Source: an uncultured bacterium
Lineage (GTDB): Bacteria; Babelota; Babeliae; Babelales; Babelaceae
Direction of reading: 5' to 3'
NCBI GenBank assembly: GCA_963722385.1
Contig: CAVRKK010000002.1
Span: 320,001 to 384,000 of the forward strand
DNA length: 64,000 nucleotides
The position numbers are program-made. Of the stretch, positions 1-51,000 are shown piece by piece (within the stretch, counting starts at the first letter, position 1; each line of letters begins with the position of its first letter).

Positions 1-3000
1 ATATGCTAGTTTGATGGATATATTTATCTTTTATTATATAAACTGAAAGGACTTTTATGGACATGAGAAAAAGTCTTAGAATCACAGGCCTGTCTCTAAT
101 ACTCGCTCTGGGTAGCTGGCAAGCGACCGGGATGGAAGCTCCTGGGCATGAATCAAGCAGCGATGAGGAAATAAGTGCAAAAGAATACTCCCCGGAGGAA
201 GCGGAACAGGGCAAAAAGCTTACCCAAGCGATCCATTATGAAGATATGGATCTCATTTATGCCTTAATTGACGCAACACCAGCTATCATTAACTATCAAG
301 ACCCAGAAACGGGCAATACACCACTTTTAGAAGCAGTGGAAGTCTCTAGCCGTCCAATAATTAAGCTTCTCCTTCAAAAAGGTGCGGACCCCGCGATAAA
401 AAATGCTCAAGGCTTTCCGCCAATTTTCGTTATTCTTCAGAAATGGAATGAACGCGAAGGGCTTTTAAGACTGCTGATTTCTTACAATATCCAGGCTCGT
501 GATGCTCATGGTCCCAATGGTCAAACGGCATTGCAATATGCTGTTGAGCGTGATTTACCCGAAAAAAGAGTCCTTTTGAGTTTATGGGCTGATATTAATG
601 CGCAAGATAACAGAGGTTGGACTGCTTTGCATTATGCTGTAGGGCAAGGAAATAGTATAGCAGTAAGATTTTTGCTTGAACAGGGAGCGAATCCGAGTAT
701 TCGAAGCTTTGATATCGACGGCAACCGTACTGCTGAAATGGTTATTAATCCTAAAACAGTAGGAAGGAGAGCGCCAGATATTATAGAAGCTATCCAAAAA
801 GCTCAATTAAACTATGAAAAAGGATGGTTTAGCAGCCTTAAAAATTTTATCGGTCTGTAATTTACTCTAGATATTAACGTCTTTAAGCCAGCACAGAAAT
901 GCTGGCTTTTTATTTATATTGCAATTGATGATAAATATTGATTATAATTATTTTAAATAGCAAATTAAAAAAAGGAGTAAGTAATGAAGCGGCTAAACGT
1001 AATTTGCGTTTCAGCTTTCTTATGTTGCAGTTTACTGGTTGCGCTAGCATGTGCCCAAGAAGCTGAGACTCCGGAAGAGCTATCGGCTAGGAAGGCTCAT
1101 CTAGAAGAGGAACAAGGACAACTTGAGCAAAAATTACTTTTAGCTCAACAAGAAAACAATCCAGAAGAAATTTCAGCAATTGAAAGCCAGCAAAAGCAGG
1201 TTGCTCAACAGCTTAAAGAAGTCTCTCAAGAAGAATCACAAGCCATTCCTATTATCTCACCGCCCATGCCGTCTAATCAAGTGCCAATTGTAGTCACAAA
1301 AGCTGGTAGTGAACAAGATGTTCTCCAAGCATCAGATATAACAATAGACATCACATTTAGGTTTTAGACTTAAAGCCCAGCAAACTGTACTCAAAGAAAG
1401 TGTTATTTAAAAATTCAGCAAAATCATTTGATATTTGCTTGATATTATCGATGAAACGATTATGTGAAACATTTTTGCGAGCAGCTTTCCAAACCTTTTC
1501 TTGCGGGTTTTCTTCAGGAGCATATGCTGGAAAGTAGATTAAATCGATGTTTTTATCTTCTTTTAAAAATTCCTGGACGGCTGACCCTCGATGCCATCCT
1601 GCATTATCCCAAATCAAAAGCAATCTGCTTTTCGGATAGTTACGTCTAAGCTGTTTTAACACATCTACCGTAATATACATGTTTTGTTTTTCTGCGATGA
1701 AAGCATGTTCTCGGCCTGTTTTTATGTTTAAAAACCCATAAAATGACCGATTTTCTCGTTTGCTTGTAACCTCAATTTTAGGGTACTCGCCGGCAGGCAA
1801 CCAAATTTTTTGGAATGTTGTTGTTGATGAAAGAATCATTTCGTCAGCAGCGAATATCTCGATCTGATCATTATTCCAAGCTTTTTTAATTACAGGCATT
1901 ACATCTTCTTTCCATTTCTGAACCTTCTGTTCATCGCGTTTCTGATAAACCTTGCCAGGCTTGTGAAATGTAAAACGCGCTTCTTTAAAAACAAGATACA
2001 ATGAGGTTTTTGATTTATATTTTACACCATATTGCTCGCGAATAAGATGTCCTAATGACCAAGTCGTCCAGTAATCCTCATCAAATCCGTAATCCCGAGT
2101 ATTATTTTTGAGCGTCTCTAAAATTTGTGTTCGCTGGCCTTTAGTCAGCAGTGATCGAATCTTTTTTTTACGTTTGTCCCTAATCCCGTCGATTCCTTTC
2201 TGCAGAAAATTGTTTCGCAATGTAAATATTGAACTTCTTTTAAACCCAGTTAGCTCTTCAATAATTCCTAAATCGAGTCTTCTATTAAGCATTAAAATCG
2301 CTTGGGTACGCAGCGATTCTTTCGTGTTTGTTTCTTTGTTTTTTAAAAATGCTTTAAGATCTTCAATTTGTGCTTGGGTTAAAACAATCTGTCTTGGCAT
2401 TTTAAAACACTCCCTTTTTGCCAAAACAGTTTACCGTTTTTAGTCTATTTTTAAAGTGTGATGTCTATATGTTTATTGCTTTATTGCTTATGCCCTGTTT
2501 GCGCATGCTTGCTTTACCCTTTTATTACCTTACTGCTTTATCGTGTTGCAGTCTTATTCTTTTATATGTTTTTAGCTTAAATTAAGAACAATATTCAATA
2601 GGATAAATCAAAACTCATATCCCTTCTACCAAGCATGCTCCTAGCACGTTAGCTTGGTACCAGCTATCCGTGTATGCTTATAACTTTGCCGCAATTGATC
2701 TTAACGAGAATATTTTTAACCTTTGACAAAAAGGATATATCTCAAGCTTAAGCAGTTTATTGATATCTTGCAATTGTCGATGCCACTCAAGAGCAGGTTC
2801 GAAAAGCTAAAAAAATGATATATTAATTATTGTAGTGCAAATGATAGAAGCCAGGTGAACCAGATGAGTAGATCCTTTAACATTAAATTTGAGGTAATGC
2901 ACCCCTTAACAGAACAAGGTGCGGTAAACATGCTATGGAAGGCATGGCAAATAGGTGGCATGTTCAAATACGGATTTGGCACCTTCGATAACATGCTAGT

Positions 3001-48000: not shown

Positions 48001-51000
48001 AGAATTTCAAGCAGCGGCACGAAGGCTTTCTCGCGTTAACGATTTTATGAATGAACAAAAGGATTTGCCAGAAACACAAGCCAATAAGCAACTTTTTAAC
48101 AAGCTCAATAAGGCTATTTTTAAGGTGCTCGACACGCTGGTCGATGAAGGCGGCATCATGGGTGTTCTCGAGCATGATACAGAATTTGAGTCAAAAGAAG
48201 AGGAACAAAGCAAGCTTTTCAATCGGCTGTCTGCGCTTCCTGAAGATATGCTCGCTGGGATGAATCAAGAAGCTACCAGCGTACTTGAACAAATGAGCAA
48301 AACTACTGACCCAAAAAAGCTCAAAGAGCTTTATGATAACTTAGAAGCTATCTATGTGAATCTCACCGAGCCACTAATCGAAGAGAAGGGTAAAAGCTAT
48401 GGCTTAAAAGATTTGCTTACTGAATCGGCTGATCTTGCAAACTTAAGTAAGCTTACCGAACAAATCGAAAAAGCCCTTGGGCCTCGAAAAGAAGTACTCC
48501 AAAAGAATGTTAAGCGCCTCGTAACGATAAGAGACCGCTTTAATGAAATATTGCCAGAGCTTAAAGAATCTTCTCTTGCAAATATCACCGCCCATGGCAA
48601 AGAACTTGGTCAGCAAAAACAGGATCTTGAGAAAATAACAGAATATGCAGTACCCGAAGGGATGGTGCCAGAGTTTCAACGTACCTATGGGCAGGTAGAG
48701 GCATGGACGGACATCATCGACGCAGCTGAAGCATATAAAGCGTTAACTAGTGCGCCTGCTCAATTAACCGAGCAAGAAAAAGCAACTATTGGCCAAGTGT
48801 ATGTAACCGTAACCAAAGCTTTTGCTGGCATTCCTGTTTCTCTCGATTATGATCAAGAAAAAATATTTACCGATCGTCTTGAGGCTATGAAGAAGCAACA
48901 AGAAGCATTGGATAAGCTTACGAGTCTCGTGCGTGAGCCAAAAGCAACGATTGATGGCAAAGAGTACGATTTGCTGCAGGTTGCGGGCTTTATTAAAAAG
49001 CTTGCTTATCGTTTTGAGAAACTTTCGTCACAGCAGCTTGATGATTTAGAAAAAAGTGGCTTTTTGATTCATGACGTACGAGAGGGTCAAACATATTATA
49101 GGCCAAGTGATCGTGGCCTTTATTTAGTCAGCATTGCTGATACGCTTAATGACGTTGAACGCCGCGCAAAGCAGCTTGATGAATATCAAAAGCAGCATGC
49201 TTCTGGTATAGAGCCAAGCCTTCAGAGACTCAGCCCTACGGGGCGACCTATCGAAATTGCAGAGGCTTATAGACTGCAGTTGCTTATTCTTGATGATCAG
49301 GTTGATGTTCTTCAGTATCTCTATCGTAGAAACATTCTCGAGAACAAGGTTGAAGAAGCAGTTTCTGGTGTTGTTAATACTACTGCTATCAATAACCCGC
49401 CGCCACTGGCCAAAATTGATAAAACAGAATTGCTCAATGATATAAGTGATTTGCTCTCCGTAGCACGTGCCGAGTTAAGAAAGGAATCAGTCAATCCCTA
49501 TTTTGAGTCACTTGTTGAAAGTGAAGCTTATATTGAGTCGTTACCTCAAAAAGAGCAGGCGGAAGCACGCAAGGCAGCTGGCTTAACAACCTGGATTATG
49601 CGCATTATTGGCCTCTCTGATCCTGAGGCAGTTTTTACCGCTGATGAGGCAACTATTACTGAAGAGGTCAAAGATATCTATACCAAGTTGAAAAGTGTTG
49701 TTAATGCCAGCTTAGCCGATCTTGCTGCTCGCTGGAAGCAAGCGGTGATTGCAGGCAAAGAGACAGCCAGTAAAGTAGCATGGTACAGCGCAATCCCCGC
49801 CGCTGTTGTTGCTTTCTTTGCCACTAAAATAACGGTACAGGCGGGAGCGCCGATAATTGGCGGAACTATAGGCAGCGCCATTGGACCCGTAGGTACCGTA
49901 GCAGGCGCAACTATAGGAAGCATGGTGGGCGGTGTGACCGGCGACGTTGCTGCTCTCTTTACTGCTGCTGGTGCAGGAGCAAGCTTGTACCTCCTTTATG
50001 CAACCTTAAAGCCAACCGAGCAAGACTATGAAAAATTAAACGAGCTTCTTTTTAAAGCGGGCTATGTGCCTGAATATATTCAAAAAGACCCGGGACTTTG
50101 GAATAAGGCGGTGGAGAAAATGAAAAGCTTGTTTTCATCTGAGGTCACTAATATGGTCAGGAATGCAGAAAAAGTAAAAGAGGGCGTTGATCAAAAAATA
50201 GCTTGGGCCAATAAAGCACAAGAAGAGCTTTATGCGCAGCTTGGCCTTGAACCCAATGCGCGAGCCGCCGCGGTTGAAGCTGGCTTTAAGCAAAAGGATG
50301 AAGCGCTCAAAGGTCGGCTTTTCTTAAATCGCTGGCTTACCAAAAAGGACTTAACGCGAGACTACCGTCGTATGCTTAAGTGCCATATCGAAGCACGCCG
50401 TGCCCAAATAGAATATAACAGCGTTCTTGTCGACATAGCTACCAAAATTATGGCTGATGTAGCACGAGAAAATACCGGCATCCTTGACAATATCTGGAAT
50501 TTCATCTGGGGTGCTAAAGAGGGGACAGAAAAACCAACCGCGGACAAGCTGATCCAAATGGCGAGCGACACCATCGATGTGTACCGCCGCCAAGTGGCCG
50601 ATCTTATAGCTCTTGAAGCAATGATTGAAAAGGAGGCGGGGGACATTGGCAAAGCTGATCCTTTTGGCAAAGGAAACACGTTAATTGACGCCTTTAGAGA
50701 TCAATTTAATAGCAGGGTTAGCAACTTAGAAACCTCATATGTCGACAATGTTAATCTTCTGCTTGAGTCTCAAGGTAAAAAAACGCTCAGCCTGCCTACC
50801 TAAAAAAATGTTTAAGAAAGGCTTTCTTTAGAGAATACTATTTTTTTAACTCTTAAAGGGGAGATGCGCTCATAACGCACCTCCCGGTAAGTTTTTACTG
50901 AATTTAGAATTTAGCTTCCTAGAGCTCTGCTGGAACTGGTGCTGTCGAATAATCCACCGAGCCACCCGTGCGATGACGGTTATCAAGGGCCGGTAGGTCA

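What a model noticed while it worked through the whole genome (the two positions that open the first line are those of the whole stretch)
1..50803. Five CdiA-like polymorphic toxin loci with swapped tips, two immunity types and orphan modules
The genome carries five 1745-1809-aa filamentous-haemagglutinin-repeat proteins: g00625, g00638, g00653, g01425, and g01097+g01096, the last called as two genes. They are 86-96% identical over ~1650 residues up to and just past a PT-TG pre-toxin motif, then diverge into two unrelated C-terminal tips of roughly 115-180 aa. Tip type A is followed by a YxiG-family gene and tip type B by a CdiI_ImmP-family gene. This is the layout of contact-dependent/polymorphic toxin-immunity systems. 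Orphan tip and immunity cassettes lie at C2:345188-347777. Four loci continue with a 267-aa ankyrin gene and a ~1350-aa protein of no known family. No TpsB/ShlB transporter or TPS secretion domain is in the table [...]
Evidence so far: pfam.tsv: Fil_haemagg_2 + PT-TG; YxiG (g00626, 0639, 0647, 0654); CdiI_ImmP (g00644, 1092, 1095, 1424). MAFFT of the five proteins: mean pairwise identity is 0.72-0.97 in 60-column windows up to column 1680 and 0.33-0.40 after it. The tips, the first 400 residues and the 1350-aa proteins have no Pfam family at E<=0.01 other than PT-TG. The ESM Atlas gave no usable hit for g00649. relatives.tsv: PT-TG in 0 of 260 other Babelales, YxiG in 2, CdiI_ImmP in 22. No ShlB, POTRA_2 or Haemagg_act name was seen in the gene lists. 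The finding spans contig positions 314192 to 370803; this window holds only 320001 to 370803 of it.
(Added by a program. Inside this text positions count along the whole contig: contig position 320,001 is position 1 of the stretch shown here. "Call 12" and the like, gene names such as g00115 and contig names such as C1 are that model's own, and its searches are not shown. The text may have been shortened before it was handed on; [...] marks where a part breaks off. The agent that wrote the report below was given it as the finding of a first reader that could run no searches.)

Follow-up and report, generated by a model that had tools for sequence, protein, structure and literature searches.

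The report
Transporter-less toxin arsenal in protist parasite
A small bacterium that probably lives inside protists carries five copies of a shortened bacterial weapon protein with swappable poison tips and matching antidote genes, yet lacks the weapon's usual export channel, which points to an unusual way of attacking rival bacteria.

Summary
Five paralogous 1745-1809-aa genes (one frameshifted) share a signal peptide and a beta-helical stalk co-linear with the C-terminal half (FHA-2 side) of TpsA/CdiA proteins, then PT-TG and one of two tips. Tip B is homologous to the solved E. coli CdiA-CT 5T86 (E 1e-15), and its neighbour to 5T86's CdiI. Tip A has no Pfam family but ends Rhs, LXG, WXG100 and DUF637 proteins elsewhere; a YxiG gene follows it in 21 of 23 genome loci, and a tip A-YxiG complex model passes (0.66, control 0.01), so YxiG is very likely its immunity protein. 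Related genomes put Ntox35 on the same stalk. No CdiB, TPS motif, TolC, T6SS sheath or VirB4 was found; BamA, a TamA-like Omp85 and type II secretins are present. Tip B-CdiI pairs occur in 21 of 261 genomes of the phylum, mostly without this stalk. The ankyrin/1350-aa pair is a co-duplicated passenger. Verdict: a CdiA-derived polymorphic toxin-immunity system without a two-partner transporter, most likely aimed at co-infecting bacteria. Activity, export and target are untested.

The parts
57..860 (+). Ankyrin-repeat protein (267 aa) with signal-peptide-like start, following T1 and its YxiG (both just outside the window at C2:314192-319878); passenger gene
984..1367 (+). First 127 aa of the ~1350-aa protein, cut off by the IS630-family element
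1357..2424 (-). IS630-family DDE transposase, 3 more copies in the genome
17429..22756 (+). Toxin T2, 1775 aa: signal peptide, beta-helical stalk, acidic linker, PT-TG, tip A
17429..17503 (+). Sec-type signal peptide of T2 (aa 1-25; the only strongly hydrophobic stretch; judged from sequence, no predictor run)
   Evidence: sequence
19124..21349 (+). Stalk aa 566-1307, co-linear with residues 1572-2354 of a full-length TpsA (23% identity, E 2e-22); holds the Fil_haemagg_2 repeats
22124..22276 (+). PT-TG pre-toxin motif of T2 (aa 1566-1616)
22424..22753 (+). Tip A of T2: 110-aa alpha+beta domain, unnamed toxin family, near-invariant R1713, M1715, Y1726, R1728, H1751
22753..23196 (+). YxiG-family gene overlapping the T2 stop codon; predicted immunity protein of tip A
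23371..24198 (+). Ankyrin gene broken by a premature stop (186 + 86 aa)
24315..24785 (+). IS200-family transposase
24975..25800 (+). Orphan module: end of linker, PT-TG and tip B (5T86-like); no upstream stalk, frameshifted near its end
25809..26582 (+). Intact orphan CdiI_ImmP gene (257 aa) with a ~115-aa C-terminal extension of no known family
26633..27316 (+). Orphan module: diverged PT-TG and tip A, interrupted by stops; its 3' end plus YxiG share 724 identical bases with T3
27316..27777 (+). Orphan YxiG, identical in DNA to the T3 copy
27955..28758 (+). Ankyrin protein (267 aa); passenger
28882..32925 (+). 1347-aa protein with signal-peptide-like start, no Pfam family over cut-off; passenger
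39866..45181 (+). Toxin T3, 1771 aa, tip A variant
45178..45639 (+). YxiG-family immunity gene of T3
45817..46617 (+). Ankyrin protein (266 aa); passenger
46742..50803 (+). 1353-aa protein; passenger

Best explanation
A polymorphic toxin-immunity system derived from the C-terminal, toxin-delivering half of a CdiA/TpsA protein and used against other bacteria, most likely rival Babelota or other endosymbionts sharing a protist cell. Steps: (1) shown: each gene is signal peptide + beta-helical FHA-type stalk + acidic linker + PT-TG + exchangeable tip, with a tip-specific immunity gene right behind; (2) inferred: the protein goes through Sec to the periplasm while the immunity protein holds the tip in check in the cytoplasm; (3) inferred and open: with no CdiB, it crosses the outer membrane by a general route: a housekeeping Omp85 reading the N-terminal beta-helix (about 35%), type II secretion (about 30%), outer-membrane vesicles or lysis (about 25%); (4) inferred from CdiA: the short N-terminal helix binds a target surface, the FHA-2-like part enters the target outer membrane, and the tip is cut off after PT-TG; (5) inferred: tips A and B are small nucleases that stop growth (tip A nuclease about 75%, RNase more likely than DNase; tip B BECR-type RNase about 65%); (6) shown in sequence: tips and stalk pieces are reshuffled by recombination among copies and orphan cassettes.
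For: Tip B vs 5T86_A CdiA toxin E 1.1e-15 with the R-x-D-x-D-P-x-K-G-x-H stretch kept; neighbour is Pfam CdiI_ImmP and its profile finds 5T86_I first (E 0.011); CdiI follows tip B in 14 of 14 other Babelota loci examined. Tip A: 168 hits at E<=0.001; in 140 of the 149 listed non-self hits it ends within 15 aa of the C-terminus; carriers among 52 scanned include Rhs (11), DUF637 (2), PT-TG (2 over cut-off), LXG (1), WXG100 (1). YxiG is the next gene in 21 of 23 genome loci, 20 of 22 outside Babelota. Tip A-YxiG complex model: score 0.66, best of 3 controls 0.01; mark reached by 116 of 157 solved and 2 of 215 mismatched pairs; runs agree in at least 86% of contacts, partner pLDDT at least 86. 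Same stalk with Ntox35 plus orphan Ntox35 and tip B/CdiI modules in G008, and with tip A + YxiG in G009. Stalk co-linear with a TpsA C-terminal half, best structural match the EtpA repeat helix (Z 25.5, rmsd 3.3, 434 aligned). Purifying selection on stalk (0.19-0.23), tips (0.24-0.45) and YxiG (0.11-0.18). An intact orphan CdiI type is kept twice although its tip survives only in broken form. A purified CdiA C-terminal half inserts into BamA liposomes and releases its toxin without CdiB (PMC13625785, sections 2 and 4 part 1).
Against: No activity, expression or target data. 5T86 has no published mechanism (bioRxiv 10.64898/2026.05.10.723254, passages) and another paper calls it VOC-like, not BECR (PMC9424270, passages). 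Tip A has no significant match to a solved protein: Foldseek none at E<=0.001, best VIA match PT7Bc Z 7.2, rmsd 3.1, 75 aligned, tied with unrelated folds. The modelled YxiG interface lies beside, not on, the invariant residues. An immunity gene is needed whatever the target, so it does not by itself show that bacteria are the victims. No export route was identified, and no receptor-binding domain can be named. T5 has Ala in place of the second Asp of the tip B motif.
Confidence: 0.78

Rival explanations
1. The proteins are effectors aimed at the protist host, for example at its mitochondrion, whose outer membrane and translation machinery are bacteria-like; the immunity genes only protect the producer during synthesis.
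For: Babelota are intracellular; Chromulinavorax replicates wrapped in the host mitochondrion, sheds vesicles and has signal peptides on 44% of its proteins (PMC6561590, passages). The nearest fold match of tip A, PT7, was toxic to yeast as well as bacteria (bioRxiv 10.1101/2021.10.19.465003, passages). Neighbouring genes are ankyrin proteins typical of host effectors.
Against: Orphan immunity genes and tip exchange make sense if the producer receives toxins from kin. Host-directed toxins of amoeba endosymbionts were reported to lack immunity genes (PMC3482391, passages). Tip A's other carriers are interbacterial systems.
Confidence: 0.13
2. A decaying relic: a CdiA that lost its transporter, is no longer exported and persists as a toxin-antitoxin-like selfish cassette amplified by segmental duplication.
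For: One of five copies is frameshifted, a sixth locus is a relic, both orphan tips are broken, IS elements sit in the loci; no transporter found.
Against: dN/dS about 0.2 along the whole stalk; the same 1710-1780-aa layout, signal peptide included, is intact in two other genomes at 31-34% identity, which needs long selection on the delivery part.
Confidence: 0.05
3. Ordinary CDI: the N-terminal beta-helix is a diverged TPS domain and a diverged or unassembled CdiB exports it.
For: Model residues 8-257 superimpose on the HpmA TPS domain (Z about 11, rmsd 2.9, 144 of 234 aligned). The genome is 93% complete.
Against: No TPS Pfam match in any stalk protein while a control TpsA scores 1.6e-46; a control TpsB finds nothing better than E 0.8 in the genome; in 261 genomes the 25 ShlB matches are partial and none covers the barrel, 24 lying in 674-995-aa frames like BamA and none in G000, G008, G009 or G011; both Omp85 genes here are 832-952 aa and the pair is common in relatives without the toxin.
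Confidence: 0.04

Closest known systems
CdiA/CdiI contact-dependent inhibition systems (type Vb), e.g. E. coli EC93
   Same: Signal peptide, FHA-type beta-helix, pre-toxin motif, variable C-terminal tip, adjacent immunity gene, orphan tip-immunity modules (PMC9086364 passages).
   Different: About half the size; no TPS motif, no long FHA-1 filament, no cdiB gene; PT-TG instead of VENN; five dispersed copies in an obligate intracellular lineage.
CdiA-CT/CdiI complex PDB 5T86 (Pfam CdiI_ImmP) and Salmonella Rhs2-SciX
   Same: Tip B and its neighbour are sequence homologs of both chains of 5T86; Rhs2, a structural homolog of 5T86, is toxic in E. coli and neutralised by SciX (preprint passages).
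   Different: Here the immunity protein has a ~115-aa C-terminal extension seen only in G000 and G008 among the loci examined.
PT7(Bc) polymorphic toxin, PDB 8OWU
   Same: Best fold match of tip A (Z 7.2, rmsd 3.1, 75 aligned, 20% identity); a small C-terminal toxin with cognate immunity.
   Different: Score is in the range of chance arrangements; PT7 is reported as a Mg-dependent DNase using Asp and His, whereas tip A conserves Arg, Tyr and His.
Sec/T2SS-exported polymorphic toxins with lineage-specific N-termini (MafB, Amoebophilus APD1/2) and rickettsial CRCT/CRCA modules
   Same: Toxin-immunity modules in host-dependent bacteria that lack CdiB (PMC3482391 and PMC9111745, passages).
   Different: Those carriers were not shown here to keep an FHA-2-type stalk; tips and immunity families differ.

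Membership tests
Polymorphic toxin system | Conserved N-terminal part with variable C-terminal tips | tested here: met
   Tips A, B, Ntox35 in G008, two further unrelated ends in P0006 and P0007
Polymorphic toxin system | Tip-specific immunity gene directly downstream | tested here: met
   Tip A-YxiG 21 of 23 loci, complex model; tip B-CdiI 14 of 14 loci
Polymorphic toxin system | Orphan tip/immunity cassettes | tested here: met
   Window 24975-27777, locus T4, relic locus, G008 array
Polymorphic toxin system | Toxicity of the tip and rescue by the immunity protein | not testable with these tools
   Needs expression in a laboratory strain
CDI (CdiB/CdiA/CdiI) | CdiB/TpsB transporter gene | tested here: not met
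   genome 93% complete
CDI (CdiB/CdiA/CdiI) | N-terminal TPS transport domain, by sequence | tested here: not met
   No PF05860 match in T2, T3, G008, G009, G011 or P0005-P0007; control TpsA 1.6e-46
CDI (CdiB/CdiA/CdiI) | N-terminal TPS transport domain, by fold | tested here: inconclusive
   Beta-helix overlays HpmA TPS (Z 11, 144 of 234) but EtpA repeats better (Z 25.5); model pLDDT 62, low at the N-terminus
CDI (CdiB/CdiA/CdiI) | FHA-2 repeats before a pre-toxin motif | tested here: met
CDI (CdiB/CdiA/CdiI) | Long FHA-1 filament and receptor-binding domain | tested here: not met
   About 540 residues lie between the signal peptide and the co-linear part, against about 1,540 in the control TpsA
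BECR-fold RNase toxins | Helix plus antiparallel sheet with conserved His/Arg, RNase activity | tested here: inconclusive
   Tip A model has this arrangement but no BECR chain among the top 50 VIA rows; 5T86 is called BECR in one paper and VOC in another
Named Ntox Pfam families (Ntox21/30/37/47) | Profile match of tip A | tested here: not met
   0 of 72 aligned members list an Ntox family among the 25 families shown at E<=1; ESM Atlas neighbours are leads only

The most novel reading that the evidence does not exclude
A CdiA that has shed both its filament and its dedicated transporter and acts as a released, colicin-like or vesicle-borne toxin inside protist cells, inserting its FHA-2 part into the outer membrane of co-infecting bacteria (or of the host mitochondrion); it is one branch of a wider, undescribed Babelota toxin-immunity network in which the same tips move between this stalk and a second, phylum-specific carrier family.
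Probability: 0.35. Interest if true: 0.85.

Novelty: new variant of a known kind. Interest (0 to 1): 0.68.

Why it matters
It would be evidence that Babelota, strictly intracellular parasites with tiny genomes, fight other bacteria inside their hosts. [quoted passage not shown] It defines a toxin family without a Pfam name (tip A) and gives the YxiG family a testable function as its immunity protein. Both toxin-immunity pairs can be tested cheaply in laboratory E. coli.

Tried and rejected
Sequence search of tip A and of YxiG against solved structures: no credible match. Tip A versus tip B profile comparison: unrelated (probability 0.1). NCBIfam: nothing over cut-off for 10 proteins. Foldseek on both models: nothing at E<=0.001. 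The genome search for the TPS family rang in no control genome, so one search was not used as evidence. Stalk search of metagenome contigs: 70 pattern matches, none confirmed. Search for longer (3108-5000 aa) relatives of residues 130-900: none among 2753 candidates, weak evidence. Search with residues 25-700 found only 4 proteins of this organism's own kind and missed P0005, so it is insensitive. ESM Atlas: no usable hit for the CdiI extension. The 122-aa orphan gene at locus T4 had no plasmid match and no Pfam family. No RNA holder was listed among sequencing runs. Read depth was not used as copy number. Rejected: that the ankyrin/1350-aa pair is a dedicated partner; it occurs in the same 3 of 261 genomes as tip A, but these are close kin and the pair lies about 30 kb from the nearest toxin in G008 and G009. 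Rejected: that the second Omp85 is a dedicated exporter; 26 of 41 family genomes show two or more Omp85 matches, while G008, G009 and G011 show one. Literature: searches listed no paper that describes these loci, a Babelota polymorphic toxin, or YxiG as an immunity protein (one search showed 25 of 343 and 15 of 3,762 papers). Supplements were not read; the candidate lists of bioRxiv 10.1101/2021.10.19.465003 and PMC3482391 could contain tip A.

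
Full report
Observation. T1, T2 and T3 end in tip A and overlap a YxiG-family gene; T4 and T5 end in tip B and are followed by a CdiI_ImmP gene. T4 is split by a frameshift near C2:873,708. Between T2 and the next intact ankyrin gene lie a broken ankyrin gene, an IS200 element, a YxiG fragment, an orphan PT-TG + tip B (frameshifted near its end), an intact CdiI, an orphan PT-TG + tip A (interrupted) and an intact YxiG. A sixth, relic locus at C2:836.6-845.6 kb keeps only fragments of tip B, CdiI and YxiG plus the ankyrin and 1352-aa genes.

Is it real? The copies are 89.6-96.8% identical in DNA, with dN/dS 0.19-0.23 over the first 1,340 codons in all 6 pairs of the 4 intact copies. 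Short-read contigs of run X1 match the tip A/YxiG junction, the IS200/orphan junction and the CdiI/orphan junction with no differences, though that run may be the source sample. The copies are mosaics: T1 and T3 share 2,616 identical bases, T1 and T4 1,990, and the orphan tip A + YxiG shares 724 with T3. Recombination among copies is the natural reading; assembler collapse within those tracts was not excluded.

The stalk. Residues 1-25 form the only strongly hydrophobic stretch and look like a Sec signal peptide (no predictor was run). Residues 566-1307 align co-linearly with residues 1572-2354 of a 2826-aa TpsA from a Providencia plasmid (23%, E 2e-22), which has a TPS domain and a TpsB neighbour. 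An AlphaFold model of residues 26-1100 (8 sequences, mean pLDDT 62) is a long beta-helix with helical insertions; its best match is the repeat region of the TpsA EtpA (Z 25.5, rmsd 3.3, 434 aligned). So the protein is in essence the toxin-delivering half of a CdiA with a short beta-helix in front. Against a clean 'TPS lost' story: model residues 8-257 also overlay the HpmA TPS domain (Z about 11, 144 of 234 residues), which may be generic beta-helix likeness or a worn-down TPS domain.

Export machinery. No Pfam TPS match in any stalk protein scanned. The only ShlB match in the genome is a sub-threshold piece of BamA; a control TpsB finds nothing better than E 0.8; across 261 genomes the 25 ShlB matches are partial and almost all lie in BamA-sized frames. 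TolC, the T6SS sheath and VirB4 were not found, with controls ringing in 7, 1 and 1 of 14 genomes. Present are BamA, a TamA-like Omp85 and two secretins in a type II secretion cluster; two gspD copies were reported for all TM6 genomes studied in PMC4776705 (passages).

Tip B. It matches chain A of PDB 5T86, an E. coli CdiA toxin, at E 1.1e-15 over 75 residues, and the neighbour's profile finds 5T86's CdiI first (E 0.011). A preprint (10.64898/2026.05.10.723254, passages) calls 5T86 a BECR fold, shows toxicity of the structural homolog Rhs2, and notes that 5T86 has no mechanistic paper; PMC9424270 (passages) calls it VOC-like. Tip B occurs in 21 of 261 genomes of the phylum. In 14 of 14 distinct loci examined outside G000 a CdiI gene follows. 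Seven long carriers (679-1475 aa) do not match the stalk profile or any Pfam family over cut-off, and 6 of the 7 are linked to each other by BLAST: a second carrier family.

Tip A. A profile search gave 168 hits; in 140 of the 149 listed non-self hits the domain ends within 15 residues of the C-terminus. Of 52 scanned, carriers include Rhs, DUF637, PT-TG, LXG and WXG100 proteins, the mark of a toxin domain that moves between delivery systems. R1713, M1715, Y1726, R1728 and H1751 are 97-100% conserved in 124 aligned homologs. In 23 genome loci, mostly Firmicutes, the next gene matches a YxiG profile in 21; one locus ends at the contig edge and one is followed by a transposase-like gene. One of the 23 is G008's own contig, leaving 20 of 22 outside Babelota. 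All 24 aligned neighbours match Pfam YxiG. A complex model scores 0.66 against a best control of 0.01 (mark reached by 116 of 157 solved and 2 of 215 mismatched pairs; at least 86% contact agreement; partner pLDDT at least 86), which supports binding but does not show it; the interface lies next to, not on, the invariant residues. The tip A model is confident (pLDDT 90.5); its best fold match is the polymorphic toxin PT7Bc (Z 7.2, rmsd 3.1, 75 aligned), tied with unrelated folds. PT7 is reported as a metal-dependent DNase (bioRxiv 10.1101/2021.10.19.465003, section 12). ESM Atlas neighbours carry Ntox30, 37, 47 and 21 in part of their members. A nuclease is my inference.

Distribution. The stalk was found in 4 of 261 genomes with a single query and 5 with a profile, the fifth weak and partial. 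The three clear carriers are three of the four closest relatives by MnmG identity (71-74%), so this is a clade-level, inherited system. G009 has tip A + YxiG; G008 has Ntox35 + a TPR-like gene followed by orphan tip B/CdiI and Ntox35 modules, and a second locus with tip A + YxiG; G011 has a stalk with no evident tip. Two longer homologs from unnamed sources (2251 and 2344 aa) have more beta-helix, no TPS match and yet other C-termini, possible intermediates between CdiA and this form.

Passengers. The ankyrin and ~1350-aa genes are adjacent to each other in G009 too but about 30 kb from the toxin, and similarly distant in G008. They were probably copied along with the cassette in this genome.

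Mechanism. Most likely the protein is exported by Sec, leaves the cell by a general route, binds a neighbouring bacterium, inserts its FHA-2-like part into the outer membrane and releases a nuclease tip. That a CdiA C-terminal half can insert and self-cleave without CdiB is shown for EC93 in vitro (PMC13625785, sections 2 and 4 part 1). The domain order of CdiA and the role of orphan modules are from PMC9086364 (passages). The target is inferred from tip exchange and kept orphan immunity genes; a host or mitochondrial target remains possible (PMC6561590, passages).

Novelty. It works like CDI but is not a member: no CdiB, no TPS motif, no long filament. Toxin-immunity modules without CdiB are known in Rickettsiales and amoeba endosymbionts (PMC9111745, PMC3482391, passages). 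Four searches listed no description of this system in Babelota or of YxiG as an immunity protein; the library lacks most subscription papers and supplements were not read. The scan's own notes held nothing on it. Verdict: new variant of a known kind, interest 0.68.

Noticed in passing
window 2855-8734; paralog at C2:1248912-1251155: Two 274/275-aa paralogs followed by a 1294-aa protein, none with a Pfam family. A second copy of this unit brackets T5: its first 439 codons lie upstream and its last 48 downstream of the T5 cassette, as if the cassette replaced the middle. The 1294-aa protein has a stretch recalling a restriction-endonuclease-like motif near aa 500 (recalled, not tested).
   Followed up: partly
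L080-L086 (G186, G225, G188, G099, G184, G241, G206): Tip B + CdiI on long carriers with signal-peptide-like starts and no Pfam family; 6 of 7 related to each other. A second Babelota polymorphic toxin family, wider spread than the stalk studied here.
   Followed up: partly
window 26235-26579 and the three other intact CdiI genes; L013:7898-8662: A ~115-aa C-terminal extension on CdiI, more conserved than the immunity domain itself (dN/dS 0.21-0.33), absent from the 13 other Babelota CdiI genes seen; no family found.
   Followed up: partly
L003:8439-8807 (C2:870439-870807): A 122-aa gene between two CdiI genes at locus T4, with remnants at T5 and the relic locus; candidate orphan immunity gene of a third type.
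   Followed up: partly
window 9221-16655: Tandem duplication of an ankyrin gene and the start of a 1487-aa distant paralog (26%) of the 1350-aa protein; the latter gene is split into 107 + 1487 aa.
   Followed up: no
window 33003-38800: A 1115-aa beta-propeller-like repeat protein of a family with many copies in the genome, and a 738-aa collagen-like (G-x-T repeat) protein; both have signal-peptide-like starts.
   Followed up: no
L001:9563-9922, L003:15728-16084, L012:15505-15909: Small unrelated-looking proteins (118-134 aa) with signal-peptide-like starts lie just upstream of T1, T4 and the G009 toxin; no Pfam family over cut-off.
   Followed up: partly
L014:5237-10825 (G011): An 1862-aa stalk homolog that ends after an acidic stretch with no evident tip and no immunity gene behind it.
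   Followed up: no
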